Assembly: GCA_964345075.1 (NCBI GenBank)
Contig: CAYFPS010000011.1
Coordinates: forward strand, 13,156-77,155
Length of the DNA stretch: 64,000 nucleotides
Reading direction: 5' to 3'
DNA from: an uncultured Bacteroidaceae bacterium
GTDB taxonomy: Bacteria; CAIWAD01
A program made the position numbers and the translations under genes. The notes under the pieces are model-generated. The model did no database searches. It saw only the letters and a list, made by a program, of their open reading frames with translations, and was not told the origin of the DNA. The stretch's first letter is position 1. The number at the start of each line of letters is the position of its first letter. Shown piece after piece: positions 5,709 to 52,961 of this stretch.

Positions 5709-5808
5709 GGATTTCCTTTCCCCCGCTGCGGCTGCTCTACATTCGGCGAGAGCTTCCCATATTAACGCATTCCCGCTTGAAGAAGCTCAGATTGCCGAAA
5801 GGAAAGAC

Positions 5809-20140: not shown

Positions 20141-21322
20141 ATGTCGACGCATCTTTTCACCAGTGAAAGTGTCACCGAAGGACATCCGGACAAGCTCTGT
20201 GACCGCGTCAGCGACAGCATTCTTGATGCCTGCCTGACGGTCGATCCCCGTGCCCGCGTCGCCTGCGAGACCTTCGTCAAGGGTTTTGAAGATTCCAGCC
20301 ACCTGATTATCGGTGGTGAGATCACACTAAACGGTGATACACCCGATTACGAACATATCGCCCGCCAGGCTGCTGCCGACATCGGCTACACTAGCAAGGA
20401 ACTGGGCATGGACGCCAGCACGGCACACGTGCAGGTTCTGGTCAGCACGCAGAGCAGTGACATCTCGCAGGGCGTGGACAAGGACAGTGGCCTCCATCAG
20501 GAGCAGGGCGCTGGCGATCAGGGCTTGATGTTCGGCTACGCGGCCAACGAGACGAAGAGCCTGATGCCCTTGCCCATCGATCTGGCCCACCGCCTGACCC
20601 ATCGTCTGGCTCAGGTGCGCAAGGAAGGCATTCTGCCCTGGGTTCGCCCGGATGGCAAGAGCCAGGTGAGCGTGCGCTATCAGGATGATCGCCCCGTTGC
20701 CGTCGAAACCGTTGTGCTCTCCACGCAGCATGACGACAACCTGGGCAAGGATGAGGACGAGACGCTGGCAATCGTGCGCGAAGGCCTCGGCCGCGAAGTG
20801 GTCGATGCCGTGATTCCGGACGACCTGCGCGCTGAGAACATGATCATCCACGTGAATCCGACCGGCAAGTTTGTGATCGGCGGTCCCTGGGGCGATGCCG
20901 GTCTGACAGGCCGCAAAATTATTGTTGACACCTACGGCGGCATGGGCCGTCACGGTGGCGGCGCGTTCTCAGGCAAGGATCCCAGCAAGGTGGATCGCTC
21001 CAGCGCTTATGCCTGCCGCTGGGTGGCCAAGCATATCGTGGCTGCAGGACTGGCCCGTCGCTGCGAGATTCAGGTAGCCTACGCCATTGGTGTGGCGCAG
21101 CCCGTCTCCATTTCAGTCAACAGCTTCGGCACCGGCAGCCAGCCCGATGAGAACCTGGACAAGCTGGTGCGCGAGCACTTCGACCTGAGGCCGGAGGCCA
21201 TCATCGAGCGCCTCGACCTGTTAAGGCCCGTCTATTCGCAGACGGCTGCCTATGGACACTTTGGACGTGAGGAATTCAGCTGGGAGCAGCTCGACAGTGC
21301 GCTTCTGGCCAAGCTTGGATAG
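20141..21322 (+). CDS. metK: S-adenosylmethionine synthetase
   Basis: [20 protein letters not shown]-terminus, then the [19 protein letters not shown]-type motif. 393 aa. Confidence 0.9.
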
Positions 21323-21333
21323 AAAGGGGAACC

Positions 21334-22743
21334 ATGCAGGACTTCAAAGTCAGGGATATGAACCTGGCGGCCTTTGGTCGCAAGGAAATCGAGATTGCCG
21401 AAAAGGAAATGCCGGGACTGATGTCCTTGAGGGTCAAGTACGGCGATGCCAAGCCGCTCAAGAGCCAGCGCATCATGGGCAGCCTGCACATGACAGTGCA
21501 GACAGCCGTCCTGATCGAGACGCTGGTGGCGCTTGGTGCGGAAGTGCGCTGGGCATCGTGCAACATTTTCTCCACGCAGGATCATGCCGCGGCGGCCATC
21601 GCCGAGGCGGGCGTGCCTGTCTACGCCTGGAAGGGCGAGACACTGGCCGAGTACTGGTGGTGCACGCGCATGGCCCTGACCTTCACAGGGGGCAAGGGTC
21701 CGACGCTGATCGTCGATGATGGCGGTGATGCCACGCTGATGCTGCACATGGGCGTCGAACTGGAGAAGGCACTTGCCAGCGGCGAAAAGGCTCCCGAATG
21801 GGCTGCCAGCTGCGAGGACGAGCGCTGCCTGCAGGCCGAGATTCATGCTGCCCGCGAAGGTGCCGAAAGCTTCTGGACCACGCTGGCCAAAGAGATTCGC
21901 GGCGTAAGCGAAGAGACGACCACGGGCGTCCATCGCCTTTATCAGCTGATGGAAGAAGGCAAGCTGCTCTTCCCGGCCTATAACGTGAACGACTCGGTGA
22001 CCAAGAGCAAGTTCGACAACCTCTACGGCTGTCGCGAAAGCCTGGCCGATGGCATCAAGCGCGCCACCGATGTGATGGTGGCGGGCAAGACCGTGCTGGT
22101 CTGCGGCTATGGCGATGTGGGCAAGGGCTGCGCCCAGTCCATGCGCGGTTTCGGCGCGCGCGTGCTGATCACGGAGATCGATCCGATCTGCGCCCTGCAG
22201 GCCGCCATGGAAGGCTACGAGGTTGTCACCGTCGAGCAGGCACTGGCCGAAACCGACATCTTCGTGACCGCCACCGGCAACAAGGATGTGATCACCGCCG
22301 AACACATGCTGGCCATGAAGGACCAGGCGATTGTCTGCAACATTGGTCACTTCGACAACGAGATCCAGGTTGCCCAGCTGGAAGCCACCGCCGGCGTCAG
22401 CAAGGTCAACATCAAGCCGCAGGTGGATCGCTACGAATTTGAAAACGGCAAGGGCATCTACATGCTGGCCGAAGGCCGCCTTGTCAATCTTGGCTGTGCG
22501 ACCGGTCACCCCAGTTTTGTGATGTCAAACAGCTTTACAAATCAGACACTTGCCCAGATTGCGCTTGCTGAAAGGGAACACGAGCTTGGCGTCTACATGT
22601 TGCCCAAGCATCTGGATGAAGAGGTTGCCCGCCTGCATCTTGCTCATCTGGGCGTGACCCTGACGGAGCTGACGCCCGAGCAGGCTGCCTACATTGGCGT
22701 AGCGAAGAACGGTCCTTACAAGCCCGAGCATTATCGCTATTAG
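21334..22743 (+). CDS. ahcY: Adenosylhomocysteinase
   Basis: 469 aa. [27 protein letters not shown]-terminus. NAD-binding [10 protein letters not shown] motif. C-terminal KPEHYRY. Confidence 0.9.
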
Positions 22744-22818: not shown

Positions 22819-24762
22819 ATGAAACGTAGTGCCGCATTTGTGCTTGCAGGTCTGGTCTTTGCCGCCTGCAGCATAGAGGATCCTGCCGGTACCCGCTGGG
22901 AGACGACTTTCCAGCTGGTGGCCGCGCCCGAGACCCTCTTCGTCAATCAGGCCGGAGAGAACGACCAGCTCTACTTTGATCCGGATTCGATGTTGATCTT
23001 CTCGCAGGAGGTTGACACGATCACGGCCCACGTTGGTGACAGTCTGCGCTGGCGCGATGTCAGTGGCAGTTTCAACATTCAGCTGGCAAATCTGGTCTTT
23101 GAAGATCAGGGTAGCGTAGAGCAGAATCTCCCCTTCTATGCCGCCTATCCGCAGTATCTGCCCTTTGACGGGACCCAGCAGCAGATCACAGAGAGCAGCG
23201 AATTCGCGCTTGAGCTGACCTTTCCTGACTGGCCGGATCTGGAGTGGATTGCGCTTTCCGGTGGTGAATACCTGCTGGACATCAGCCATTCATGGCCCTT
23301 CGATATGGAGTGGGTCGAGCTGGCCATTTACAACAGCTTTGGCGAAACGCTGGGTAGCCAGCGGGTTGAGCCGGCTGGTGGACTGCCTGCCGGCGAGCTG
23401 TGGCAGGGACAGATGCCCATGAGCGGCCTGTTGACAGCCAGTCTCAGTCTGGGCATTTCCGGCAATAACCTGCCAATGGACGCGCCCGGTCTGATTGAAA
23501 ACAGCGGAATGGCCATTCAGCTGGTGCAGGTCTACAGCGAGGCTGACAGCGCGCGCGCACTGATTCCCGCCCAGCACTTCCTGCTGGAAGACAGTCTCCT
23601 TTCCGACGACCGCCTGCGGATTGTGGAAGCCTTGAGTGGCCCCAGCACCCTGACAATCAATTCGACAGAAAACATCGGTCTGCCCATCGGCATGGAAATC
23701 GTCTTTCCGCAGTTCCTCGGCGTTGAGAGCAGCGATCCCCTGACCCTCGCCTTCGATCTTGACGGCAGCGGTGGGGAAAGCCAGACCATCAATGAGCTGG
23801 AAGCCCTGCACTTCCTGGATGAAGACGGCTCGGGCCTGCAGTATTTCCCGATTCTTTTTGCCGCCTCTACACCGGAAAGCGATGGCATGCAGACCCTGAT
23901 CAGTGGTGGCAGTGTCAGCATCAACCTGAGCTTTTCGGAAGCCTCGCTCGAAACCTTTACCGGCTATTTTCTGCAAGACCTGATTGTACCCATCGAGGAT
24001 GAGGCCGCGCTCTTCGACCCCTGGCCAGCCGAGCTGGAACTGCTCGACATGAGCGACATGGCCATGCGCTTCCACATTCGAAACGATCTGGATGTGACCG
24101 TTGAGAGCACAATCACCCTGGATGTAACAGCAGGACCCAATGCCGCATACGGTGATACAAGCCTGGTGCTGACTCCACAGGTGACAGCGCAGGATACGCT
24201 GATTCGCCTGACAGGTGTGGGTCGCATCGCTTCGCGCCTGCCCGAGAGCATCATGGTTGGTGGTGAACTGGTGCTGCCCAGCAACAATCTTTTTAACCTG
24301 GACCAGAGCAGCATCATGGGGATCACGGCTATCGAAATGGCTGCGCGCTTCAGGCTTTCCGGCTTCCAGTGGGCTTCCACACCTGATGAAGTTACCGAGG
24401 AGATTCCTCAGGAAGTGCTTGAGGTCGCGCTGGAGAGCTGGATCGACAATCGCATTCCCGTGGGCGGTTACCTTCGTGGTTATGTATCACAGAGCATGAG
24501 CGGGCCGGGTGTGGAGCTCTACAATATCGAGCTTGATCCTGCTATCTGGATGGAAGATTCGGCTCTGGCCGTCCGTGATACAATCCGCGTAGAACTGAAT
24601 GGAGAGGCGCTGGATGTTACCCACGCCAATCCCTGGTACATCTGGTACGAGTTTGAAGCCATCGCGCCTGAGGACGTTGTAGAACTTAGAAGCCACCAGT
24701 GGATGCGCGTACAAACGAGTTTTCAGGCCACGATTGATGTCGATCTGGAGGGCAATGACTGA
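22819..24762 (+). CDS. Hypothetical acidic lipoprotein
   Basis: Signal peptide with lipobox (LVFAAC). 647 aa, no recognisable catalytic motif. First gene of a tightly overlapping four-gene unit. Confidence 0.5.
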   Translation: MKRSAAFVLAGLVFAACSIEDPAGTRWETTFQLVAAPETLFVNQAGENDQLYFDPDSMLIFSQEVDTITAHVGDSLRWRDVSGSFNIQLANLVFEDQGSVEQNLPFYAAYPQYLPFDGTQQQITESSEFALELTFPDWPDLEWIALSGGEYLLDISHSWPFDMEWVELAIYNSFGETLGSQRVEPAGGLPAGELWQGQMPMSGLLTASLSLGISGNNLPMDAPGLIENSGMAIQLVQVYSEADSARALIPAQHFLLEDSLLSDDRLRIVEALSGPSTLTINSTENIGLPIGMEIVFPQFLGVESSDPLTLAFDLDGSGGESQTINELEALHFLDEDGSGLQYFPILFAASTPESDGMQTLISGGSVSINLSFSEASLETFTGYFLQDLIVPIEDEAALFDPWPAELELLDMSDMAMRFHIRNDLDVTVESTITLDVTAGPNAAYGDTSLVLTPQVTAQDTLIRLTGVGRIASRLPESIMVGGELVLPSNNLFNLDQSSIMGITAIEMAARFRLSGFQWASTPDEVTEEIPQEVLEVALESWIDNRIPVGGYLRGYVSQSMSGPGVELYNIELDPAIWMEDSALAVRDTIRVELNGEALDVTHANPWYIWYEFEAIAPEDVVELRSHQWMRVQTSFQATIDVDLEGND

Positions 24763-26030
24763 TGAGAACCCTCTTTGCCCTGCTGATTGCACTGTGTCTG
24801 CCTTTTACTGCCACCGAAGCACGCCTGCTTGATGGTGCCGGACGCATGCTGGATGCCGACATGGGAGCCGCCGAGCTCTCGCCGGCTATCCCTTACAACG
24901 ACAGTTACAAACTGGTGGTCGGTCTCGACTCCTGGTTCACTGTGAGAAACGATCGCCTCTCCATTGGTACCTGGAATGACCATGTGGGTCATTTCCTTGA
25001 CGACGAAGAGAAGCGGGCCATTCTGGATGAGATGGGCGGTGTGATGGGCGCCCATCAGCGAATGATTCTGCGTCCGCTGGCTCTGATTGTGCCCTTCAAG
25101 GACAAGCGTCAGAGCATGTTCGGTATGTCGCTGGAGCTTGTATCACAGGCCCATTTGCAGATGGATACCGAGCTCTTTGAGCTGGCCTTTTTTGGAAACG
25201 ACCCCAACCGTGAAATCGTGATTGACCACGCCGATCTGGATGCTGAGCTGACAGCGCAAGTCCGCCTGACCTTCAGCCGTGTATACGGCATGCCTGCCAG
25301 CTGGCCGGCATGGATTGCGGGCCGGCCGGTGCGCTTCGGAATTGGCTTGCAGCTTGAGCGACTTGGGCTGCGCAGCTCTACAGAGAGCTTTGACAATTCG
25401 ATTCAGCCGGTAGTGGGCGAGTTCGAAGCCTGGTTCAGGCATACCCAGAAGACAGCTGACACAGGCTTTGGCAAGTCCTTTGACCTTGGCGCGCAGACCG
25501 AGCTCGAACTGCTCGACCGACCGCTGCTGGTGGATGTCGCCTTGCGCGGCCTTTTGCACAGCCGCGACTGGCGTCATGTCGAAGAAGAGCTGCGAGTCTT
25601 TGAAGTTCCGGAAACGGGCATCGACACGGATTTCGATGAAGAGATCTTCAGCGATGCGATCATGGACACGACCATTACCACCGATCTGGGTGCCAGCAAG
25701 GTTCGCTTGAGCCCGGGCTGGACGCTGGGCCTGCGCTGGGAGCAGACGAAGACCATTCATCATGCTTTCCTTATTGAAGAACTGCCCGAGACATCCATTG
25801 ATGTGACACAGCGCAGGGCCTCCTGGTATACGCGCTGGAATCCCAAGAACAGCATTCTTTATCTGGGTGCGGAGCTTTCCGGCGGAATGGGACGTGGCCC
25901 CGGTATCGGCGGCGAATTGCAGCTGAAGGGGCGCTTCTTTGAATTCGGCATCGGGCTTAAAGGATACGCCGGTATCGGCAATTCATCCCGCGGTATCACA
26001 ACAGGCATCATGGCGCGCTTCCGATTGTGA
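24762..26030 (+). CDS. Hypothetical exported protein (possible outer-membrane beta-barrel)
   Basis: Signal peptide MRTLFALLIALCLPFTATEA. Alternating amphipathic segments, C-terminal ..GIMARFRL. Start overlaps the upstream stop (ATGA). Confidence 0.45.
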   Translation: MRTLFALLIALCLPFTATEARLLDGAGRMLDADMGAAELSPAIPYNDSYKLVVGLDSWFTVRNDRLSIGTWNDHVGHFLDDEEKRAILDEMGGVMGAHQRMILRPLALIVPFKDKRQSMFGMSLELVSQAHLQMDTELFELAFFGNDPNREIVIDHADLDAELTAQVRLTFSRVYGMPASWPAWIAGRPVRFGIGLQLERLGLRSSTESFDNSIQPVVGEFEAWFRHTQKTADTGFGKSFDLGAQTELELLDRPLLVDVALRGLLHSRDWRHVEEELRVFEVPETGIDTDFDEEIFSDAIMDTTITTDLGASKVRLSPGWTLGLRWEQTKTIHHAFLIEELPETSIDVTQRRASWYTRWNPKNSILYLGAELSGGMGRGPGIGGELQLKGRFFEFGIGLKGYAGIGNSSRGITTGIMARFRL

Positions 26031-30364: not shown

Positions 30365-30844
30365 ATGAAGCATGTTTTGATGGCGGCAAGCCTGCTGCTG
30401 GCGGGGGCTCGACTGGGCCACTCGCTGCCTGAAGCAGGTTCGCCGGCTCCCGCCCTGCCCGAGGGACAGGATCTTTCGGGCAAGATTGTCCTGCTTGATT
30501 TCTGGGCCAGCTGGTGCGAACCCTGCGCCCAGAGTTTTCCCTGGCTGGACTCCCTTCAGATCGCCCTGAAGGAGCACGCCTTTACCGTCATTGCCGTCAA
30601 TGAAGACCGCAAGTGGGCCAAGGCCGAACGCTTCCTGAAAGAAGGCGCTTACACCCTTCCCGTCGTCCATGACAAGGGCGGGAAACTGGCAGCAGCCTGG
30701 GGGCTTGAAGGCATGCCTTCGAGCATTCTGATTGATGAAACAGGCACCGTGCGCTTCAGCCATGTGGGCTTTCGAGAGGGTGACAGCCAGCTCTTCGAAA
30801 AGGAAATTGACGCTTTGCTGAAAGCTGTGGAGGCTGGCCAATGA
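30365..30844 (+). CDS. TlpA/ResA-family periplasmic thiol-disulfide oxidoreductase
   Basis: Signal peptide, then LLDFWASWCEPC (thioredoxin-fold CxxC). Confidence 0.85.
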   Translation: MKHVLMAASLLLAGARLGHSLPEAGSPAPALPEGQDLSGKIVLLDFWASWCEPCAQSFPWLDSLQIALKEHAFTVIAVNEDRKWAKAERFLKEGAYTLPVVHDKGGKLAAAWGLEGMPSSILIDETGTVRFSHVGFREGDSQLFEKEIDALLKAVEAGQ

Positions 30845-31053
30845 AAAGGCTGTTTTGCTGTGGCTTGCTGCTGGCCCTCAGTCTGGGCTGTGTCAGGCGC
30901 GTGCAGCCCTGGGAGCGCGACCTGCTGGCCGATCCGCAGATGAGCGCCCAGCCCGATGCTGTGGAAGCCGGACTGGACGAGCATGTTTACTTTTCCAAGG
31001 AAGCCGCACACGGCGGTGATGGCGTCGGTGGAGGAGGCTGCGGATGCAATTGA
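30841..31053 (+). CDS. Small lipoprotein, DUF4266-like
   Basis: 70 aa. MKRLFCCGLLLALSLGC lipobox and a Gly/Cys tail (GGGGCGCN). This is the size and position expected for DUF4266, which pairs with DUF3570. Start overlaps the upstream stop. Confidence 0.6.
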   Translation: MKRLFCCGLLLALSLGCVRRVQPWERDLLADPQMSAQPDAVEAGLDEHVYFSKEAAHGGDGVGGGGCGCN

Positions 31054-32360
31054 AGCATGTGCAGCCAGTGATGGCTGGTGGCGGCCTGCTGGCTGCGGCT
31101 GCCCTTTCGCTACTGGGATCCGCCCCCGGCAAGGCCGAGGCTGTTTCCGGCCGCTCTGGCAGCTGGACGATGGAGCAGGCCACGCTTGTATACAAGGAAG
31201 TCGATCAGGTTCAGGTCATCGAGCCTGTCTTGCGACTTAAGCGTCAACTGGCCGGCGATCGAGAGATTGCCCTGCGCTTCGGTTTTGATGCGATGAGTGG
31301 CGCCTCGCCCAATGGCGGAACCTCCTCAAACACGCATCAGATATTCACTTCCCCCTCGGGCAACAGCTATTCCGCCCAGCCCGGCGAGCTTCCACGGCGC
31401 ACCTTTCACGACGAGCGCTTCAGCGGTGGACTTGAATACACAACGCCCATGAAGCCACAGTTGAAGCTGACCAGTGGTGCCAATTTCAGTGTAGAGACGG
31501 ACTACCTGAGCCTGGGGCTTTCCAGCTCCATCGCCTGGGAGTTCAATCAAAGACACACCACGCTGAATGCAGGCATCAGCCTGAATCAGGACACTGTCTC
31601 GCCGGAAGGCGGCCTGCCCGTGGGGCTTGAACATGTATCACAGCGCGAGGAAAACAGCGACAGCGATTCCAAAACGCTGGTGGACGGCCTGATTGGTGTG
31701 ACACAGGTGATGAATGAACGCTGGCTGCTGCAGGTGAATCTCGGCATGGGGCACGATTCCGGCTACATGACCGAGCCCTACAAGGGAGTCAGCGTGCTGG
31801 ATGCTGATGGAGTTCCCGACACCGAAGCAGGCGGTGACCCGCTGATGCTCAACGAACGCCGTCCGGACTCGCGTAGCCGCAGCACTCTTCTGGTGCGGAA
31901 CATGCTGCATCTGGGGCGTGATGTGGTGCACCTTGCCTGGCGCATGTATCACGATGACTGGGGCGTTGACAGTCACTCGCTGGATCTGAAGTACTGGCTC
32001 AAGCCCGACAGCTTTCTCGGTCGTCACGACTGGAGCTTTCGCCCGCACCTGCGCTGGGCCACGCAAAGTGCCGCGGATTTCTACAAGCCCTGGCTTTCCA
32101 GCGATGAGCTTGCCGCCTATAGCCCCGGCAGTTCGCTTGATCTAAGCTCCGACCATCGTCTTGGCGAAATGCAGAGCCTGACCGCCGGCCTGCGCGTGGA
32201 CTTTCCCGAGACCGCATTTGGCCGCTTCTGGTTGAAACCCGAGTACATGGTGCAGAGCTGGACGCTGGGAGAAGCCATTCCTGCGGGCCTGGGCAGCAAT
32301 GATCCCATTCCGGATCTCAAGGTGATGATGGTGACCTTTGGCTTTTCAAGGAGCTTCTGA
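31044..32360 (+). CDS. DUF3570-like exported protein
   Basis: 438 aa, signal peptide. The DUF3570 assignment rests on gene context and size; beta-rich composition. Contains DAMSGAS at about aa 82-88. Confidence 0.55.
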   Translation: MQLKHVQPVMAGGGLLAAAALSLLGSAPGKAEAVSGRSGSWTMEQATLVYKEVDQVQVIEPVLRLKRQLAGDREIALRFGFDAMSGASPNGGTSSNTHQIFTSPSGNSYSAQPGELPRRTFHDERFSGGLEYTTPMKPQLKLTSGANFSVETDYLSLGLSSSIAWEFNQRHTTLNAGISLNQDTVSPEGGLPVGLEHVSQREENSDSDSKTLVDGLIGVTQVMNERWLLQVNLGMGHDSGYMTEPYKGVSVLDADGVPDTEAGGDPLMLNERRPDSRSRSTLLVRNMLHLGRDVVHLAWRMYHDDWGVDSHSLDLKYWLKPDSFLGRHDWSFRPHLRWATQSAADFYKPWLSSDELAAYSPGSSLDLSSDHRLGEMQSLTAGLRVDFPETAFGRFWLKPEYMVQSWTLGEAIPAGLGSNDPIPDLKVMMVTFGFSRSF

Positions 32361-33273
32361 ACCACCGCGTGAAGTGACTATCGAAGCGGGTCAGTCCGAA
32401 TGGCTGGCCCGCTTTTCCTGCTTTGCCGGCCCCTGTGAAATTCATCTTCCGGGCCTTTCGCGCAGCAGGGCCACGCGTGTATCACAGCAGATCGCCAAGG
32501 AAGCCTGGAGAATCGAATCGACCTACAGCCGCTACTTAAGCGCGAGCTGGCTGGGGCGGCTCAATGCCTTAAGCGGCCAGCGCATGGAGCTTCCGGAAGA
32601 AGCGGCCCGGCTCTTTTCCTTTGCCCAGGCCGGTTGGGAGGTCAGCGGCGGTGCTTTTGACATCAGCTCGGGTATTCTGCGGCGGGCCTGGAACTTTCAG
32701 GCAACAGAAGGGGAACTGAAGCCGCCGGCAAAGGCCGAGCTGAACGCCCTGATCGAGCGCGTGGGTTGGCAGAAGATTCGCTGGTCTTTGGAAGAAGGCT
32801 GGGTCGAAGTTCCTGAAGGCATGGAACTGGATCTAGGCGGACTGGGCAAGGAATATGCCGTGGATCGCGCCATTGCCATGCTTAACGCCAATGGCTTGTC
32901 GCATGCCTTGGTCAACTTCGGGGGCGATCTGGCTGCGACAGGGGCCATGCCCGGCGGTCGGCCCTGGTCGGTGGGGATCGATAATCCCGCCGCCACAGGG
33001 AGCGCCATGGCAGAAAGCATCGAGCTTTCCAGAGGGGCTCTTGCCACAAGTGGGGATGCCAGACGCTTCCTTTCCTATCGCGGCCGCCGCTATGGACATC
33101 TGCTTGACGCAAGAACCGGCTGGCCACCGCCCGACGCGCCGCGCTCGGTCAGTGTGTTGGCCGACACTTGTTCGGAGGCCGGCCTTCTGGCCAGCATCGC
33201 CCTCCTGATGGGTCCGGATGCCGAAGCCTTCCTTGAGGAGCAGGGCCGCAAGGCCTGGATCGTGCGCGACTGA
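32338..33273 (+). CDS. apbE: FAD:protein FMN transferase (ApbE family)
   Basis: ApbE signatures: ..GAFDISSG.., LDLGGLGKEYAVDRA, and GGDLAATG (metal/FAD site). Confidence 0.8.
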   Translation: MAFQGASEPPREVTIEAGQSEWLARFSCFAGPCEIHLPGLSRSRATRVSQQIAKEAWRIESTYSRYLSASWLGRLNALSGQRMELPEEAARLFSFAQAGWEVSGGAFDISSGILRRAWNFQATEGELKPPAKAELNALIERVGWQKIRWSLEEGWVEVPEGMELDLGGLGKEYAVDRAIAMLNANGLSHALVNFGGDLAATGAMPGGRPWSVGIDNPAATGSAMAESIELSRGALATSGDARRFLSYRGRRYGHLLDARTGWPPPDAPRSVSVLADTCSEAGLLASIALLMGPDAEAFLEEQGRKAWIVRD

Positions 33274-33377
33274 TTGTGCCCGCCTGCATTGGCCCCAATG
33301 CAGACCCGCGCCTGAAGCGTGCTGCTGGTGTGCTGATCAAGGCGTTGTGTTAGCTTTACGCATCAAAGGGAGGCAGC

Positions 33378-33593
33378 ATGATCCGCATCACCTATTGCCA
33401 GGTTTGAAACTACGAACCTCGCGCCGCCGGTCTGGCGGACTTTTTAAGAAAGCAGGGATATGAAGCCATCGAGCTGGTGGCCGGCAGTGGTGGCATCTTT
33501 GATGTTGAGCTGAACGGCAAAATGATTTACAGCAAGTTCGATGAAGGGCGCTTTCCCATGCACGAGGAAATTCTCAGCCTGCTTCAGGCCTGA
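33378..33593 (+). CDS. selW: SelW/Rdx-family selenoprotein with in-frame UGA (Sec) at 33405-33407
   Basis: Translation MIRITYCQV[U]NYEPRAAGLADFLRKQGYEAIELVAGSGGIFDVELNGKMIYSKFDEGRFPMHEEILSLLQA. CxxU redox motif. The GGIFDV..NG..IYSK...GRFP core aligns with SelW. RBS AAAGGGAGG precedes the ATG. A hairpin CCGCC-GGUCU-GGCGG lies 16 nt after the UGA. The gene is absent from the ORF track because of the TGA. Confidence 0.75.
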
Positions 33594-34657
33594 ATACCCC
33601 ATTCGACCAGCAGCTTTTCAAGCTCGGCGATGACCCGTTCTGGCGAAATCTCGGCCAGACTTCGCACCGGCTCGCAGGAGCCCTTCGCTGGCTGCTGGCG
33701 AGTGTCCGAGGCTGTGGCCAGCCAGCGCTGATTGGGCTGTGTCGGGTCGGTCCATGATTCCGGATGCACGTGCCCAAAGAGGGCGAGGCTGGGCGTGCCG
33801 GAAAGCGAGGCCAGATGTTTGGGGCCGCCATCATTGCCCACAAACAACGCGCACCTTGCCAGGATTTCCTTTAGCTGGGCGAAGGTAGGCATTTCATAAT
33901 CCACCAGCGCCTTCTGGCCGATTCGTCCGGCCAGCTCCCGCGCGGCGTCTTCTTCACCCGGTCCGTAGACCAGCATGGGCTTCAGTCCCCGCTCAGCCAG
34001 CCAGCGCCCAACTTCTGCCAGATGTTCCGGCGGCCAGACCTTGTAGGCCCGCCGGCTGACGCCAAAAAGCGCCGCCACACGATATCGCTGCTGGCCATCT
34101 GGCTGCCCGGCCTTCAGCAGGCCCGCACTGGCAAAGTGCTTCTGGCAGAAGGCCTCGGCCCATTGCCTGTCCTGTTCTGACGTGGAAAAGTCCAGTGCAA
34201 GCGCGCCATGATCCAGGGGCGAATCCAGAGCGCTGGCCGCCATTTTCAACTTGTCCAGCGCACTGTAATCGCTGTTGAAGCGTTCATAGAGCCGATTGTA
34301 GCCAAGGCCTCGCCACCATCTTCCGCCAAAGCCCGAGCGAAGAGCCGCGCCGGATAGCCGCGTGAGCAGGGCAGTCTTGGGCAGGGCCTGCGCATCGATC
34401 ACCCAGTCCGGCTGCCAGTTTCGGATCTGTTTCAGGCAGTCGACAAGCTGCCCGGCGCCAGAATGTTTGGGCAGAATGATTGGCGCTTCCAGATAGGGAT
34501 TATGCTCGAGCAGCTGCCTGCCGATGCCTTCGCAAAGGACACGAATGGATGCCGCGGGAAAGCGCTGCTGCAGCTGACGGGCAAGGGGCGTGATCATCAG
34601 AATGTCGCCCAGCTGGCGAAGTTGAATAATCAGGATGCGTCTTGGGGAAGCAGGCAT
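33584..34657 (-). CDS. Glycosyltransferase family 9 (ADP-heptose:LPS heptosyltransferase-like)
   Basis: RILIIQLRQLGDILMITPLARQL N-terminal motif typical of RfaF/RfaC/RfaQ. The track ORF up to 34750 starts at TTG; an internal ATG near 34657 is a more plausible start. Confidence 0.75.
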   Translation of the reverse strand: MPASPRRILIIQLRQLGDILMITPLARQLQQRFPAASIRVLCEGIGRQLLEHNPYLEAPIILPKHSGAGQLVDCLKQIRNWQPDWVIDAQALPKTALLTRLSGAALRSGFGGRWWRGLGYNRLYERFNSDYSALDKLKMAASALDSPLDHGALALDFSTSEQDRQWAEAFCQKHFASAGLLKAGQPDGQQRYRVAALFGVSRRAYKVWPPEHLAEVGRWLAERGLKPMLVYGPGEEDAARELAGRIGQKALVDYEMPTFAQLKEILARCALFVGNDGGPKHLASLSGTPSLALFGHVHPESWTDPTQPNQRWLATASDTRQQPAKGSCEPVRSLAEISPERVIAELEKLLVEWGIQA

Positions 34658-34813
34658 TTGGGGGCTCAGGAGAGTTCTGAATTGTGAACAGCGCAGCCCA
34701 CCCACTGACCCCCCACCCGCCCGCCCGGCGTACCGGGGGCGAGCATCCAAACGGAAAACGGAAGGTCCGGGTTCCCGCTTTTCACAGACTTTCCAAGGAA
34801 AATCACTTGAGCG

Positions 34814-39469: not shown

Positions 39470-41728
39470 CTATTTCAGGAGCAGGGCCTTGGATGTATCA
39501 CGCCAGTTCCCGGCTTCAATCGTGTAGAAGTATACGCCAGCAGGCAGCTGATCGGCGGACCAGCTAATCGAATGTGTTCCCGGGCCCATCAGTCCAAGGG
39601 CTTCGTCATGAACCCGCCTCCCCGACAGATCGTGCACCAGAAAGCGCACGGGCGAGGCAGTTCTTTGCTTCCAGTTGATTGTCGTTGAAGGATTGAAGGG
39701 GTTGGGATGATTGGGTAGAAGTTCAAAAGCAGCCGGAGCGGCGGTATCAACACCGATGGTGATTTCGCCCAGCTGCAGGCTGAAAGGATGGCTCTCACCA
39801 AAACCGGCAAAATCAGCGACAATCCAGTAGATGCCAGCTGGCAGGCCGATTGCTTCCAGCGCTTCGCCATCCGGACCTGCCCCCAGCTCGTTTTGGGCCA
39901 GACCACAGCTGCCCACAGGGTTTGCACAGTCACCATAGACCAGAATCACCTCATCGGCATCGCCTTCGCCAGTCAGTTCGACAAGCAGATTGGTCGCATC
40001 AGTCAGCTCCACCCTGAAGACCTGGTCCAGTCCGGGACTGCTGATCTCATTCGGGCAGCTGCTCCCGTCCACATGGGCCATTGAGGGAGCTTGTTCAACA
40101 TCGATCGAGTAGGTCCCTTCCAGAACGCCGATATCCGTGTAATCGCTGCACATTTCGCCCTCTGGCAGCTGGGCTGTTAAGGACAGCGCGTAATTCTGTG
40201 CCTCTGGAAGATCACCGGGCGCGTTGTGTGTGACAACCACGAAGTAGCTGCCGGCCGGCAGCAGTTCCACACTCAAGGTTTCGGGGTGGCAGGCCGGGGC
40301 ATCATCCACTGCATGGAGCACGGCGCCGTCCGTGGCGAAGTCCGTGATGTAGAGGGCGGCATCCAGCGCGTCTACATCGCAATGAAGCTCCAGAGCCATG
40401 GCGCTTTCAAGTTCGAGCAGGAACCAGTCCTGATCGCGCTCTCCGCCCTCGGCCCAGAGCGTTCCACAGACGAGATCGCCGGGCTGTATCACATCATAGC
40501 TTGAATTGGGCGGATCAGCACTCCAGCCTTCATTGGGCTCCACCTCGGGCTGGCCATCACAGCTGATTGCCTCGTGACCGGCGCAGGGGTCGCCACTGCA
40601 GGCAAGCTCCAGAGAATAGTCGATGGCTGTCAGACCGGAGGGTTCCGATCCGTGATCCACCACGATGTAATAGCTGCCTGAGGGAAGGGCTTCCACGCTG
40701 AAGGATTCGTTGTAACACGCGGGCAGGCCGTTTGCTTCTGCAAGCTGGGCACCATCCACTGCCTGCTCCATCAATCTTAGTCTGCCGTCAAAACCGCTGA
40801 CAGTAAGATTCACTTCGATGTTACCACCAAAGTGCGTGTAGAGGTACCAGTCGCCTGTTGTATCACCGTCTTCAAGTGTGCCGCAGATCAGCTCTCCACA
40901 GCGCAGGAGAGTGTGGCTGCCATCTTCCCAGCCCTGATTCGGCTCTGTTTCCGGCAGACCGACACAGTCTATGGCATCACATTCCGCTGGAGGATAGATG
41001 GAAATGGCTACTTCGTCTTCAAGCTGCAAGCCCGCGCCATTCAATCCGATTTGCAGGCCAACGGTGCCGGACTCATTTTCAACACCGACCGTAGCTGAGT
41101 TTACCCCACCCGGATCCAGATCCAGATACTGGAATGTGATCACGCCGAAAGGGCTCAGGATGGCCTGAAAACTGTGATGCTGCGAGTTGTTGTCGTAGCG
41201 GGGAACATCATCCCATTCGATGATGAAGAGATTGCGCTCCTCGTCATGCCAGGTCAGAATCGCGCCGCCCGCGTCAATCAGGATATCGTCCCACATCGGG
41301 CAGATGCAGTTGTTGGGCTGCACTGTCGAAGGAATGTTCGTGTTGATCCAGACCAGACCGTTGCCGTCAAAGGTCATGTAACCGTTGGTGGAGACCATGA
41401 TGCTGCTGTATTCATTCCCGTAAAAGGGAAAGGACCAGGGCAGATTCACTGTTTCCGCATCATCCAGTCCGCTCAGATTAAGCTGATCGCCAACCTGGTT
41501 GATTTCGATCCAGTCGAATTCGGGGCCGCCGGCCGTGCTGTTGCTGATCCAGAAATAGCCGAAACTGTCCGGCCCGCCACTGTCCCGTGTATCACGAAGG
41601 CTGGCCTCTTGCTGAATGTCGCTACTGTCAGGTGCAGGATCCCCCGGGCGTGCAGTGGCCGGGTGGATAATGGTCAATGTCGCCAGAGTGAGGCCGACCG
41701 GGCAAAGGCGTGAAAAGCGATGCTTCAT
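39470..41728 (-). CDS. T9SS cargo protein A (752 aa): one NIDO-like module, two PPC-like Cys modules, Por_Secre_tail CTD
   Basis: Signal peptide MKHRFSRLCPVGLTLATLTIIHPATA. GGPDSFGYFWISNS..GPEFDWIEI..VSTNGYMTFDGNG..CPMWDDIL..GG.I.. (NIDO-like). Two EPN..W..D.DWY-type modules. C-terminus LLPNHPNPFNPSTTINW...KALLLK. Confidence 0.8.
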   Translation of the reverse strand: MKHRFSRLCPVGLTLATLTIIHPATARPGDPAPDSSDIQQEASLRDTRDSGGPDSFGYFWISNSTAGGPEFDWIEINQVGDQLNLSGLDDAETVNLPWSFPFYGNEYSSIMVSTNGYMTFDGNGLVWINTNIPSTVQPNNCICPMWDDILIDAGGAILTWHDEERNLFIIEWDDVPRYDNNSQHHSFQAILSPFGVITFQYLDLDPGGVNSATVGVENESGTVGLQIGLNGAGLQLEDEVAISIYPPAECDAIDCVGLPETEPNQGWEDGSHTLLRCGELICGTLEDGDTTGDWYLYTHFGGNIEVNLTVSGFDGRLRLMEQAVDGAQLAEANGLPACYNESFSVEALPSGSYYIVVDHGSEPSGLTAIDYSLELACSGDPCAGHEAISCDGQPEVEPNEGWSADPPNSSYDVIQPGDLVCGTLWAEGGERDQDWFLLELESAMALELHCDVDALDAALYITDFATDGAVLHAVDDAPACHPETLSVELLPAGSYFVVVTHNAPGDLPEAQNYALSLTAQLPEGEMCSDYTDIGVLEGTYSIDVEQAPSMAHVDGSSCPNEISSPGLDQVFRVELTDATNLLVELTGEGDADEVILVYGDCANPVGSCGLAQNELGAGPDGEALEAIGLPAGIYWIVADFAGFGESHPFSLQLGEITIGVDTAAPAAFELLPNHPNPFNPSTTINWKQRTASPVRFLVHDLSGRRVHDEALGLMGPGTHSISWSADQLPAGVYFYTIEAGNWRDTSKALLLK

Positions 41729-41751
41729 GCAAACTCCATGCTTGGGAGCTT

Positions 41752-41787
41752 CAAAGTAAAAGAAAAGGGTGACCCTTGGGCCACCCT
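41752..41787 (-). terminator. Intrinsic terminator after T9SS gene B
   Basis: Minus-strand hairpin aagggtggcc-caag-ggtcaccctt followed by ttcttttac. Confidence 0.55.
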
Positions 41788-41810
41788 TGATTGTCTAAAT
41801 CCAGCTGCTA

Positions 41811-44800
41811 CTACTTAAGCAGCACGGCCTTGCGCGTCGCCTGCCACTCGCCGCTTGACAGCGTGTATACATAGACGCCGCTGGGCAAGCTCGCTGCATT
41901 CCATGTGAAAGTATGGCTCCCCGGGCCGCGCAGCCCGAGATCTTCCTGCATCACACGCTCACCCTTCAGGTTGTAAATGCTGATTTCAGCCTTTGCCATT
42001 TCGGGCTGAATCCACTGCACGGTCGTGACCGGGTTGAAGGGATTGGGATAGTTCTGCCTGAGTTCGAAACTGAGCTCGCGCCCTTCCAGCAGGCCGCTGT
42101 TCATGTCGATCACCTGCATCACAAAGGGGTGACTTTCACCGTATCCGGCAAAGTCCGCCACCAGCCAGTAATCACCGGCAGGCAGACCCATGAACTCAAG
42201 CACTTCGCCTTCGGTGCCGGGGCCGTGATCGTTTGCGGCAGCACCACAGCTGATCGCGGGCGTCGCGCAGTTGCCAACCAGCAGAATCACTTCGTCGGCA
42301 TTGCCTTCGCCAGTCATGGCCACATGCAGGTCCATCGGTTCGGCCAGCACCACACGCAGCGTGTAATCCAGACCCGGGCTGGAAACATCACCCGGGCAGC
42401 CGGTGCCGCTGTGATGTGCGTACTCGGGCGCCGTGTCCGCGACCACCGTCCAGATGTCGTGGAAGTCGGGCACATCTTCGTAACCGTCACACATGTCCTG
42501 CGTGGGCAGGCTGCCGGAGACGGTCAGCGCATAGGCCTGCTCCTCGGGCACGCCGTTCATCTCGTTGTGGCCGATCACGATGAAGTAACTGCCAGCGGGC
42601 AGGGACTCAACCGAAATGCTTTCCGGGTGACAGGCCGGCGCGTCGTCCACCTCGTAAAGTACGCCGCCTTCAGGATTCATGTCCGTGATGAAGAGGGCTG
42701 CATCAAAGCCGTCAATTTCGCAGGAGACCACCAGCTCGGTCGCACTTTCCAGCTCCAGCAAGAACCAGTCCATGTCACGCTCGCCGGCATCGGCCCAGAC
42801 CGTACCACAAATGGTTTCGTCCAGAGCGATCACGCCATAGTTGCTGTTGGGCGGATCGGCGTTCCAGCCTTCGTTGGGTTCGGCTTCTGCCGTGCCACTG
42901 CAGTCGATGGGCTCGTGTCCGGCGCAGGGATCGCCCGAGCAGTTCAGCATCAGGGCATAACTCTGCGGGCCTTCCAGATCCGGATCACCGTCATGCTCCA
43001 CAACGATGTAATAGGAACCACTCTCCAGCTCGCTCAAGCTGAAGGCTTCGCCGAAGCAGCGCGGGAAGGTGTTGGCATCGGCCAGGATATCACCGCCCGG
43101 CGCACTTTCGCGCAGTGTGAGACGGGCATCAAAGTCGCTCACATCCACGATGACTTCGATGTTGCCGCCAAAGTGGGTGTAGAGGTACCAGTCGCTGTCG
43201 GTTGTGGTGCCGTCGCTTTCCAGTTCGCCACAGATCACATCGGCACAGCGAATGCTGTTGTAGCTACCGTCTTCCCAGCCCTGATTGGGCTCTACCTCGA
43301 CGATGCCCGTGCAATCAACCGGCTCACAGCTGGACTGGGGCAGATAGACCACCATCGTCTCGTCGGCCACGGAGCCGCCTTCACCCTGATAGCGATAACC
43401 CAGACCACCGGAAGCGTCTGCATTCTCGATACCGACATTGGCATTGGCCACATCGCTCTGATCCATTTCATCATAGGCAACTTCGATGATGCCGCTGGGA
43501 TAAAGGATGATCTCAAAGGTGAAGGGACCGCCCGAGCTGTAAGCCATGATGCCGTCGAACTGCACGATGAAGCGCTGCTCGTCTTCATCGTACTCGTAAT
43601 ACACGGTGCCGCCATTGTTCGGATTCAGGTCGTCCCAGAAGGGAGCGATCATGTTGTCCGGCGACCAGCCATCCCCATTGTAGAAGGGAATCGGGTTGGT
43701 GCTCCAGTAGCCTGTGTAACCCTGACCGAAGCTGATGTAACCGTTTGAAGCGATGTAGACTTCTGACTCGATGCCACCATACCAGGGGAAGTCGAAACCG
43801 ATATCGAAGGGACCATCGAAACTGTCGTCGCTCAAGGACGCAGCACTTCCACTGCCACTGATATCAACCCACTCGAAATCGGGACCAGTAGGATGATCGC
43901 TATTGACCCACGTGTAGCCATAGGCATCGGGGCCGCCGAAGCTGGGCGGACTGCCCCAGTAGCCGCTGTCCGTGTTGGAGGGATCCGACTCGCCCGCGTC
44001 GAAACTGGCGGTCACGTGATAATCATAGATGACATCCGCTTCCGAATCGTAGGAGCTGTCATCGGTGAAGTTCAGGCCCGTGGTCGTGGCAATCAATTCG
44101 CCATCACGGTAGACATTGTACTCGATGAAGACACGCTCATTCAGGTGGAAGATCTCGTTCACCCGGTTGACGGCTTCGTCCTTGCTCAAGCCGCGCTGCT
44201 GCAGCAGGTAAATGGCTTCTGTATCACAGGAGGGCGACACGCCGCCAAACCAGCGGGCCAACAGTCCGGGATTGACAGGTGGCATCCAGCTCAGGCCCGT
44301 ATACGACAGGAAGCCATCCGTTGCCACCAGCCCAACCGGCGGCCAGGTGTAACTGACAATGTTGAAGCTGTACGTCGGTGATACACGCGTGTTGGCGTTT
44401 TCCGAATTGTCCGTTGCCTCAACCCACCAGCTGATCATGCTGCCGGCATCCTGGTGGGGAATGTCCCCCTCGTATGTATCACCGCCAGCATTGTCCATGG
44501 CAACTTCCTGCGAAGCGCCACCGTTGATCTGATAAAACAGGCTGACCGAATCGATACCGGTCAGGTCGGTGATCTCGGCGGAAATGGTGTAATCGCCTTC
44601 CAGCTCGGTTTCCATGTCCACAGGCAGATCGTTCAGCACAATCATCGGAGGCTGGAAATCCCCTTCAAGGGCTTCCACACGAATGGCCAGTTCATCCACC
44701 AGCGCACCACCATCGCCATTGTAGTTGACCAGCAGGCCAATGGTGCCGTCACTGTTCTCGATACCAACCGTGGCAAAGGCCAGAGCGCCTTCTTCCAGGT

Positions 44801-47684: not shown

Positions 47685-47787
47685 AGGGGCTCCTATTTAG
47701 CCTGAGGCCAGATTCTTGGCAGGTTCCGCTTGCAGCTTACAAAGTGGGGGGCGTTGATTCGAGGAAAAAACCACTATACAGCAGCTT

Positions 47788-47828
47788 TAACAATGAAAGG
47801 GGCGGCCCTCGTGAATGGACCGCCCCTT
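47788..47828 (-). terminator. Intrinsic terminator after T9SS gene C
   Basis: Minus-strand hairpin aaggggcggtcc-attcacga-gggccgcccctt followed by tcattgtt. Confidence 0.5.
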
Positions 47829-47854
47829 GCTTGAATGCGATTGCTTGGGCTGAA

Positions 47855-52807: not shown

Positions 52808-52911
52808 AGGGGCTCCCAAATCCTTGAGCCAGTGTGATGTTAAAGGCAGGTTCCGAAGGGCTAGAGTAGCAAATCCCAAGCTGGAATCATGCATTTGGGA
52901 CCTTGTGCAAT

Positions 52912-52939
52912 AAAAAAGGGTCCCGCCTGCGCGGGACCC
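52912..52939 (-). terminator. Intrinsic terminator after T9SS gene D
   Basis: gggtcccgc-gcag-gcgggaccc hairpin followed by TTTTTT on the minus strand, directly after the gene D stop. Confidence 0.8.
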
Positions 52940-52961
52940 TGTTGCTTCTGATAAAGCTGGA

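What the first reader, a model, noticed from the sequence alone, without database searches (positions are those of the whole stretch)
33378..33593. Unannotated SelW-family selenoprotein gene with in-frame TGA and SECIS-like hairpin
Between apbE and the minus-strand GT9 gene lies a 71-codon ORF preceded by AAAGGGAGG. It is interrupted by TGA at 33405-33407 exactly in a CxxU context (ITYCQV-U-NYEPRA). The downstream translation (GGIFDVELNGKMIYSKFDEGRFP) matches the SelW/Rdx thioredoxin-like fold motifs. Sixteen nt after the UGA is a hairpin CCGCC-GGUCU-GGCGG, whose GGUCUG apical sequence resembles the E. coli fdhF SECIS loop. The six-frame track misses it entirely. This implies the organism has Sec machinery (selA, selB, selC, selD) elsewhere.
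Basis: partly seen in the sequence, partly recalled or inferred. Interest (0 to 1): 0.65.

Follow-up and report, generated by a model that had tools for sequence, protein, structure and literature searches.

The report
SelW-like selenoprotein gene with SECIS
A 71-codon gene that ordinary gene finders miss, because it uses the stop codon UGA to insert selenocysteine, is a genuine but ordinary member of the SelW-like family, the most common bacterial selenoprotein family in environmental samples.

Summary
Window 33378-33593 (+) encodes MIRITYCQV-U-NYEPRAAGLADF...LLQA, with an in-frame TGA at 33405-33407. With U written as C it matches Pfam Rdx (65.3 bits) and NCBIfam SelT/SelW/SelH models above their cut-offs, across both sides of the TGA.

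In 144 distinct homologous genes from genomes and metagenomes, the same codon is TGA. The frame stays open and conserved downstream. Six homologs have TGC or TGT there, which gives the classical Sec/Cys pair.

The hairpin CCGCC-GGUCU-GGCGG (33424-33438) is in register in all of them. It shows compensatory changes at synonymous third-codon positions. The second loop base is always G, and the third is U in 93% against 12% expected. Pairing averages 4.74 of 5 against 3.45 when synonymous codons are resampled. The loop starts 21 nt after the UGA, inside the published 16-37 nt range for bacterial SECIS elements.

TGA is the normal stop of 25 of 40 window genes, so this is not an alternative genetic code. 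The Sec machinery (selA, selB, selC, selD) is not in the window, and the rest of the genome could not be reached.

The family has been described since 2005, so this is a new member of a known kind and of low interest.

The parts
33365..33373 (+). Shine-Dalgarno-like AAAGGGAGG, 4 nt upstream of the ATG
   Evidence: Read directly from the sequence. Homologs L001-L003 also carry GGAGG 5-8 nt before their ATG.
33378..33593 (+). SelW-like (Rdx family) selenoprotein coding sequence: 71 sense codons including one UGA-Sec, plus a terminal UGA stop
   Evidence: Translation. Pfam Rdx 65.3 bits. NCBIfam NF041051 88.6 bits and TIGR02174 58.5 bits. PDB profile hits to Rdx/SelW structures. Aligned end to end with homologs.
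33396..33407 (+). CxxU redox motif (TGC CAG GTT TGA = C-Q-V-U). The Sec codon is 33405-33407.
   Evidence: The TGA sits in the column that is TGA in 144 distinct homologs and TGC/TGT in 6 Cys-forms. It aligns with the CxxC of solved Rdx proteins.
33424..33438 (+). SECIS mini-hairpin inside the coding sequence: 5' arm 33424-33428 CCGCC, loop 33429-33433 GGUCU, 3' arm 33434-33438 GGCGG. It encodes part of A-A-G-L-A.
   Evidence: Fold. Conserved helix with compensatory changes. Synonymous-codon control, with loop G invariant in 144 of 144. The loop starts 21 nt after the UGA, inside the published 16-37 nt range (PMC10778597).
33591..33593 (+). Terminal UGA read as stop. It lies inside a 10-nt overlap (33584-33593) with the 3' end of the convergent GT9 ORF.
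   Evidence: TGA is the stop of 25 of 40 genes in the window.

Best explanation
This is a functional gene for a small cytoplasmic SelW-like (Rdx family, thioredoxin-like fold) selenoprotein with a Cys-x-x-Sec redox centre.

Shown here:
- The reading frame, the family membership and the conserved UGA.
- The conserved in-frame RNA hairpin 16 nt downstream of the UGA.

Inferred from the established bacterial mechanism (Bock and colleagues, as summarised in PMC1088965 and PMC10778597):
- During translation the hairpin, with its G-U-containing apical loop, is bound by the specialised elongation factor SelB carrying Sec-tRNA(Sec).
- SelB delivers selenocysteine to the ribosome when UGA 33405-33407 is in the A site.
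- The second UGA (33591-33593) has no such hairpin and terminates.

Also inferred, from the family motif: the product cycles between a selenol/thiol form and a selenenylsulfide form (Cys7-Sec10) as a thiol-dependent oxidoreductase. Its physiological substrate is unknown for the whole bacterial family.
For: 1. Pfam Rdx scores 65.3 bits over profile positions 2-72 of 74, across the TGA. The part after the TGA alone scores 43.5 bits. NCBIfam NF041051 and TIGR02174 are both above their cut-offs.

2. All 83 homologous loci from species-representative genomes and 80 of 81 from metagenomes carry TGA at this codon, with an open, conserved frame on both sides. Six homologs carry TGC or TGT.

3. In public protein databases the family appears as CxxW or CxxG (TGA translated under code 4 or 25) or as N-terminally truncated fragments of 40-60 aa. 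This is the usual signature of misannotated selenoproteins.

4. Hairpin pair 21-33 of alignment A3 joins two third-codon positions. It reads CG 61, UA 9, GC 6, UG 4, AU 1, GU 1, with none broken. Pair 22-32 has 12 double changes. The covariation score is 0.217 against 0.067, with 0 of 500 shuffles reaching it. Slid registers collapse. RNAalifold finds the same helix. Metagenome variants use entirely different arms in the same register, such as CCCUC/GAGGG and CCGCG/CGCGG.

5. Keeping every peptide but resampling synonymous codons gives 3.45 +/- 0.065 pairs against 4.74 observed. The base after the invariant loop G is U in 93% against 12% expected.

6. The Cys-forms keep only 1-4 pairs, mean 2.8, n = 6.

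7. TGA is the commonest ordinary stop in the window, 25 of 40 genes.

8. The geometry matches published bacterial SECIS descriptions: loop 16-37 nt from the UGA, a 5/6-bp apical hairpin, G in the loop.
Against: - No selA, selB, selD or tRNA-Sec gene lies in the 64 kb window, and the rest of the genome could not be examined.
- The hairpin alone is not more stable than shuffled sequence.
- No Rfam family matches it.
- In this particular copy the hairpin is followed by ACUUUUUAAG and so also fits a terminator pattern.
- There is no experimental evidence of selenium incorporation.
- The Cys-form control is small (n = 6), and two Cys-forms still keep 4 of 5 pairs.
Confidence: 0.92

Rival explanations
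1. The gene is a relic. It descends from a SelW-like selenoprotein gene, but the organism has lost the Sec machinery, so UGA 33405 terminates and only a 9-residue peptide is made.
For: No Sec-machinery gene is visible in the window. Selenoprotein loss is frequent in bacterial evolution (PMC1794560, title and abstract).
Against: - The copy shows no decay. It has a full-length open frame with a strong Pfam score downstream of the TGA.
- It has a perfect 5 of 5 hairpin with the majority GGUCU loop.
- It keeps an intact Shine-Dalgarno sequence and start codon.
- The closest relative, L004, keeps the same arrangement.
Confidence: 0.04
2. The hairpin at 33424-33438 plus its U-run is an intrinsic terminator of the upstream apbE transcription unit. 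On this view the ORF similarity is incidental to its role.
For: The terminator scan lists CCGCCGGTCTGGCGG followed by ACTTTTTAAG, about 150 nt after the apbE stop. It found 2 hits against 0.6 expected.
Against: - The U-run is absent from the other loci of alignment A3, while the hairpin is present in all of them. The U-run therefore reflects the local codons D-F-L-R.
- The hairpin tracks the UGA at a fixed 16-nt distance inside a conserved coding frame.
- The stem has only 5-6 bp.
Confidence: 0.02
3. UGA is read as a standard amino acid, either Trp or Gly through an alternative genetic code, or Cys or Trp through near-cognate read-through. On this view the product is not a selenoprotein.
For: Database entries for homologs show W or G at this position.
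Against: - Those W and G residues are artefacts of gene callers choosing code 4 or 25 on short contigs. The DNA reads TGA.
- In the window TGA ends 25 of 40 genes, including this one.
- The aligned residue in TGA-free homologs is Cys, and a dedicated conserved hairpin follows the codon.
Confidence: 0.02

Closest known systems
Bacterial SelW-like selenoproteins (CxxU; Pfam Rdx PF10262, formerly PF05169; TIGR02174 CXXU_selWTH; NCBIfam NF041051)
   Same: - The same domain over its whole length, and the same CxxU motif position.
- The same in-ORF SECIS hairpin directly after the UGA.
- The same predominance of Sec over Cys forms: 48 to 7 in the Sargasso Sea and 427 to 56 in GOS (PMC1088965, PMC2398784). 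Here it is 144 distinct Sec forms against 6 Cys forms.
   Different: Nothing essential. This copy is short (71 aa). It comes from an unidentified lineage of about 59% G+C with type IX secretion-type (Por_Secre_tail) sorting domains and flagellar genes. The closest homolog found is only 64% identical.
E. coli fdhF SECIS (the SelB-binding mini-helix)
   Same: Both are a short G+C-rich hairpin inside the ORF, just downstream of the UGA, with a small apical loop containing G-U. The window's loop context GGUCUG is the same hexamer I recall from fdhF; this is from memory and was not checked here.
   Different: The helix here starts 16 nt after the UGA, with the loop at 21 nt, against about 11 nt and 18 nt in fdhF (from memory). 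No bulged U is evident. The stem is only 5-6 bp. It resembles the 5/6-bp minimal SECIS described for epsilon-proteobacterial Fdh, SelD and SelW (PMC4607533).
Mammalian selenoprotein W (PDB 2npb) and other eukaryotic Rdx proteins (SelT, SelH, SelV, MIEN1/C17orf37 2ljk)
   Same: Homologous domain and CxxU/CxxC motif. The profile scores E 5.6e-6 to 2npb and 1.7e-15 to 2ljk.
   Different: Eukaryotic members use a 3'-UTR SECIS of a different type (PMC1088965, Figure 7 legend). Here the SECIS is a coding-region hairpin.
Solved bacterial Cys-form Rdx proteins (2fa8 Atu0228, 3dex SAV_2001, 2oka, 2ojl, 2obk, 2p0g)
   Same: Best sequence matches among solved structures, E 8.5e-17 to 3.5e-12. The CxxC aligns on the window's CxxU.
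   Different: They carry Cys in place of Sec, are about 100-108 aa long, and have Trp after the motif (CNW/CRW) where the window has NY.

Membership tests
Rdx / SelW-like protein family (PF10262, TIGR02174, NF041051) | Sequence match to the curated family models above their cut-offs, over the full domain | tested here: met
   Pfam Rdx 65.3 bits (cut-off 22.6), profile positions 2-72 of 74. TIGR02174 58.5 bits (cut-off 34.2). NF041051 88.6 bits (cut-off 88, only just passed), positions 1-70 of 70. U was written as C for these searches.
Rdx / SelW-like protein family (PF10262, TIGR02174, NF041051) | CxxC/CxxU redox motif near the N-terminus, in the family's conserved column | tested here: met
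   C7-Q-V-U10 aligns with CxxW (TGA) and CxxC of 19 homologs and with the CTQC of 2fa8 and 3dex.
Rdx / SelW-like protein family (PF10262, TIGR02174, NF041051) | Thioredoxin-like beta-alpha-beta-beta-beta-alpha fold | not tested
The fold is inferred only from sequence homology to eight solved Rdx structures.
Bacterial selenoprotein gene (UGA-Sec decoding) | In-frame UGA aligned with Cys in homologs (Sec/Cys pair), with conserved coding sequence on both sides | tested here: met
   TGA in 83 + 80 loci. TGC or TGT in 6 (L100, L164, L166, L167, L170, L171). tblastn alignments span residues 2-71.
Bacterial selenoprotein gene (UGA-Sec decoding) | SECIS hairpin in the ORF immediately downstream of the UGA, with a small apical loop containing G, 16-37 nt from the UGA | tested here: met
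   The loop starts 21 nt after the UGA, with a 5-bp stem (6 bp in many homologs) and a 5-nt loop GGUCU. G at loop position 2 in 144 of 144. Criteria taken from PMC10778597, PMC1088965 and PMC4607533. bSECISearch itself was not available.
Bacterial selenoprotein gene (UGA-Sec decoding) | The hairpin is under selection as RNA (covariation beyond what the peptide imposes) and is tied to the UGA | tested here: met
   Covariation 0.217 against 0.067, 0 of 500 shuffles. Pairing 4.74 against 3.45 under synonymous resampling. Cys-forms average 2.8 pairs, n = 6, a small control.
Bacterial selenoprotein gene (UGA-Sec decoding) | selA, selB, selC (tRNA-Sec) and selD present in the same genome | not testable with these tools
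   None in the window: ARAGORN found 0 tRNAs and Pfam scans of about 45 ORFs found none. The one window protein looked up (MetK) is not on record in the contig collection.
Bacterial selenoprotein gene (UGA-Sec decoding) | Selenium actually incorporated at the UGA | not testable with these tools
   Needs 75Se labelling or mass spectrometry.

The most novel reading that the evidence does not exclude
In this lineage the SelW-like selenoprotein may be transcriptionally and functionally attached to the upstream redox cluster at 30365-33273. That cluster comprises a TlpA-like thioredoxin, a small lipoprotein ending GGGGCGCN, DUF3570 and the flavin transferase ApbE. The link would give bacterial SelW-like proteins their first physiological context.

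For it:
- ApbE lies immediately upstream in both the window and its closest relative L004.
- No promoter-like or terminator-like site lies in the 104-nt gap.

Against it:
- The linkage is absent from the other 76 loci examined.
- SelW has no signal peptide, whereas the cluster proteins look exported.
Probability: 0.08. Interest if true: 0.4.

Novelty: new member of a known kind. Interest (0 to 1): 0.18.

Why it matters
In practice this is an annotation repair. The gene is invisible to standard gene callers. Public protein sets hold its relatives mostly as truncated fragments or with W or G in place of Sec.

It also marks the source organism as a selenium user, which predicts selA, selB, selC and selD and probably further selenoproteins elsewhere in its genome.

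It does not change what is known. SelW-like CxxU proteins with in-ORF SECIS hairpins have been catalogued as the most abundant prokaryotic selenoprotein family since 2005 (PMC1088965, PMC2398784), and NCBI already has naming models for them.

The comparative set assembled here gives an unusually clean picture of a family-specific SECIS: 144 Sec-forms in one register, a 5-6 bp helix and a loop of consensus N-G-U-Y-U. That consensus could serve as a search model.

Tried and rejected
- **Thermodynamics.** The hairpin region folds no better than shuffles (z +0.63 and -0.80), so this is uninformative for so short a helix.
- **Rfam.** There was no match at the gathering thresholds over the window. 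At E <= 10 over 33340-33620 there were only four chance-level snoRNA/sRNA hits away from the hairpin.
- **Sec machinery in the window.** There are no tRNAs at all. Pfam scans of the long ORFs showed no SelA, SelB or SelD.
- **Other selenoprotein genes in the window.** A scan of unannotated gaps for TGA-read-through ORFs gave nothing credible.
- **Locating the source genome.** An exact look-up of the window's MetK found nothing on record.
- **Cys-form control from a metagenome scan.** The scan was seeded with Cys-forms but returned 80 Sec-forms and one Cys-form. Five further Cys-forms were fetched one by one.
- **Conserved gene neighbourhood.** Immediate upstream and downstream ORFs of 77 and 74 homolog loci were scanned against Pfam. 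No family appears in more than 5 loci, so context gives no functional lead.
- **Structure prediction.** I did not pursue it, because sequence hits to solved Rdx structures were strong.
- **Rejected readings.** I considered and rejected an alternative genetic code, a pseudogene and a terminator. See the rival explanations.

Full report
**1. What is in the sequence**

Window 33378-33593 (+) reads ATG ATC CGC ATC ACC TAT TGC CAG GTT TGA AAC TAC GAA CCT CGC GCC GCC GGT CTG GCG GAC ... GCC TGA. Its translation is MIRITYCQV*NYEPRAAGLADFLRKQGYEAIELVAGSGGIFDVELNGKMIYSKFDEGRFPMHEEILSLLQA*.

- The frame is closed upstream by TAG 33351-33353, so the ATG at 33378 is the first possible start.
- AAAGGGAGG lies at 33365-33373, 4 nt before that ATG.
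- The mechanical ORF list shows only a 38-aa GTG-started remnant at 33477-33593. This is why a six-frame view misses the gene.
- The gene ends 10 nt inside the 3' end of the convergent GT9 ORF at 33584-34750.

**2. The protein**

With the TGA written as Cys, the 71 residues match Pfam Rdx (PF10262) at 65.3 bits, E 5.8e-18, over profile positions 2-72 of 74. The 61 residues after the TGA alone give 43.5 bits. Both sides of the TGA therefore contribute to the match.

NCBIfam gives two matches:

| Model | Score (bits) | Cut-off (bits) | Coverage |
|---|---|---|---|
| NF041051, "SelT/SelW/SelH family (seleno)protein" | 88.6 | 88 | 1-70 of 70 |
| TIGR02174, CXXU_selWTH | 58.5 | 34.2 | – |

A profile of the family hits eight solved Rdx/SelW structures: 2fa8 at E 8.5e-17, then 3dex, 2ljk, 2oka, 2ojl, 2obk, 2p0g "Selenoprotein W-related protein", and mouse SelW 2npb. 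Their CxxC lies on the window's C-Q-V-U.

**3. Is the TGA a conserved Sec codon?**

The word-indexed protein search gave three homologs. Two have W at the position (P0001, P0002) and one is a 55-aa N-truncated NCBI entry (P0003). Their DNA shows TGA in all three, preceded by C-x-x and an upstream ATG with GGAGG.

The exhaustive representative search with the post-TGA part found 208 relatives. The full-length ones read CxxW, CxxG or CxxC. Most of the rest are 40-60-aa fragments that begin after the motif. This is the known signature of selenoprotein misannotation (PMC1088965).

A scan of one genome per species returned 80 loci. They come from Planctomycetota (many Fuerstiella), Acidobacteriota, Eisenbacteria, Krumholzibacteria, Gemmatimonadota, Desulfobacterota, Calditrichota, Verrucomicrobiota and others. 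All of them, plus L001-L003 and the window, have TGA at the aligned codon, with the alignment running through residues 2-71.

A metagenome scan seeded with Cys-forms still returned 80 TGA-forms and one TGC-form. Five more Cys-forms were fetched individually and read TGC or TGT. The Sec/Cys pair criterion is therefore met.

**4. The hairpin**

In the window, 16 nt after the UGA, come CCGCC (33424-33428), GGUCU (33429-33433) and GGCGG (33434-33438). The fold of this region is no better than shuffled sequence, so the case rests on comparison.

In an ungapped alignment of 82 distinct sequences (A3), the helix occupies columns 19/20-24 and 30-34/35 in every row.

| Pair | What it joins | Counts |
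|---|---|---|
| 21-33 | Third positions of two Ala-type codons | CG 61, UA 9, GC 6, UG 4, AU 1, GU 1; none broken |
| 22-32 | – | GC 54, UA 5, UG 5, AU 2, GU 2; 14 broken (A.C or U.C) |

Overall, 89.8% of cells pair, against 20-61% in slid registers. The covariation score is 0.217 against 0.067 +/- 0.010, with 0 of 500 shuffles reaching it. RNAalifold independently predicts the same helix and adds a G.U or A-U closing pair at 25-29.

The metagenome set adds arms of quite different sequence in the same register. Examples are GCCCUC-CGUGC-GAGGGC (peptide ALRAR), GCCGCG-AGUCU-CGCGGC and GCGGCC-CGGGU-GGCCGC.

The hairpin lies in coding sequence, so I tested whether the peptide alone explains it. 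Over 144 distinct Sec-forms, 106 have 5 of 5 pairs and 38 have 4 of 5, mean 4.74. Redrawing synonymous codons from the same genes' usage gives 3.45 +/- 0.065, with a maximum of 3.67 in 1000 trials. The second loop base is G in 144 of 144. The next base is U in 93%, against 12% expected. Among the 83 sequences, every Gly at this codon is GGU (42) and every Ser is AGU (38), in genes that otherwise prefer GGC and AGC/UCG.

The six Cys-forms keep 3, 4, 4, 2, 1 and 3 of the 5 pairs. Three of them lack the loop G. This control is small but points in the expected direction.

The loop starts 21 nt after the UGA. The published range for bacterial SECIS elements is 16-37 nt (PMC10778597). A conserved loop G is the stated hallmark (PMC1088965). 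A common 5/6-bp apical hairpin was described for epsilon-proteobacterial Fdh, SelD and SelW (PMC4607533).

**5. Alternatives**

- **Alternative code.** TGA ends 25 of 40 window genes, including apbE and this gene itself. The W and G residues in database entries are translation artefacts.
- **Terminator.** The scan flags the hairpin because ACUUUUUAAG follows it. That U-run encodes D-F-L-R here and is absent from the homologs.
- **Relic gene.** This cannot be excluded without the genome. However, the copy is intact in every respect: start, frame, 5 of 5 helix and majority loop.

**6. Sec machinery and context**

The window has no tRNA gene, no Rfam hit, and no SelA, SelB or SelD domain in about 45 ORFs. 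This says nothing about the other megabases of the genome. An exact look-up of a window protein found no record, so the genome could not be walked.

Upstream lie a TlpA-like Redoxin (30365-30844), a 70-aa lipoprotein-like ORF ending GGGGCGCN (30841-31053), DUF3570 (31044-32360) and ApbE (32338-33273). The closest relative, L004 (64% identical SelW-like), also has ApbE (49% identical) immediately upstream. Across 77 upstream and 74 downstream neighbours of homologs, no Pfam family recurs in more than 5 loci. The family as a whole is therefore a stand-alone gene, and context gives no functional lead.

**7. Comparison with what is known**

SelW-like CxxU proteins were the most abundant prokaryotic selenoprotein family in the Sargasso Sea, with 48 Sec forms against 7 Cys forms, and a bacterial SECIS is shown for a SelW-like gene there (PMC1088965). 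The same held in the GOS data, with 427 against 56 (PMC2398784). Their redox function is inferred from the motif, and the substrate remains unknown.

The window gene meets every membership feature that could be tested here. The fold and the Sec machinery were not tested.

**8. Verdict**

This is a new member of a well-known kind and a useful annotation fix. It marks the source organism as a selenium user but is not surprising. Interest is 0.18.

Noticed in passing
L076:4016-4075; L165:85-125; L174:268-345 (outside the window): Three SelW-like homologs have TGA at both redox positions, giving Y-U-G-[MV]-U-N-Y, a UxxU motif. They are a Verrucomicrobiales MAG (PAHQ01000031.1), a TARA ocean scaffold and another ENA metagenome contig. 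One hairpin follows at the usual place, 21 nt from the second UGA and 30 nt from the first, so both lie inside the 16-37 nt range. The open-access papers I searched mention UxxU only for a Prx-like family, not for SelW-like.
   Followed up: partly
window 33424-33447: The SECIS hairpin is followed by ACTTTTTAAG and is scored as an intrinsic-terminator-like site. The U-run is not conserved in homologs, so it is probably a by-product of the D-F-L-R codons. A modest attenuating effect in this organism is not excluded.
   Followed up: partly
window 30365-33273 (+): A four-gene cluster lies directly upstream of the selenoprotein gene: TlpA-like Redoxin with WCEPC, a 70-aa lipoprotein-like ORF ending GGGGCGCN (30841-31053; no NCBIfam hit, and it looks like the DUF4266 type from memory), DUF3570, and ApbE flavin transferase. 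ApbE-then-SelW synteny is shared with L004 only.
   Followed up: partly
window 56630-60670 (-): A run of four genes: a GT4 glycosyltransferase, a PIG-L deacetylase, a BshC-like Rossmann protein and a methyltransferase. The first three look like a bacillithiol biosynthesis (bshA/bshB/bshC) set, that is, a low-molecular-weight thiol system in the same organism as the SelW-like protein.
   Followed up: no
window 39470-56354 (-): Four consecutive large proteins (752, 1957, 1679 and 1130 aa) carry C-terminal Por_Secre_tail (type IX secretion) sorting domains. Two of them have NIDO domains and all four have PPC domains. Together with the flagellar genes flgK and flgL at 30-2249, this points to an FCB-group-like lineage.
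   Followed up: no
L100 (metagenome contig Ga0075435_100308879, 1.35 kb): One short contig carries both a Cys-form (CAPC, TGC) and a Sec-form (CVE-TGA) SelW-like gene. The Cys copy has lost most of the hairpin, keeping 3 of 5 pairs with loop GCGCU.
   Followed up: no
public protein collections (P0004-P0153): Most database entries of this family are artefacts. They are either N-terminally truncated 40-60-aa fragments starting after the UGA, or full-length entries with W or G at the Sec position because a gene caller chose genetic code 4 or 25 for a short contig.
   Followed up: yes
window 2250-6756 and 20141-22743: Methyl-cycle genes are concentrated in the window: B12-dependent methionine synthase, MTHFR, SAM synthetase and SAH hydrolase. 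They are unrelated to the finding.
   Followed up: no
window 22819-26030 (+): Two long adjacent ORFs (647 and 422 aa) have no Pfam match at E <= 1e-5. They lie upstream of an ABC ATPase.
   Followed up: no
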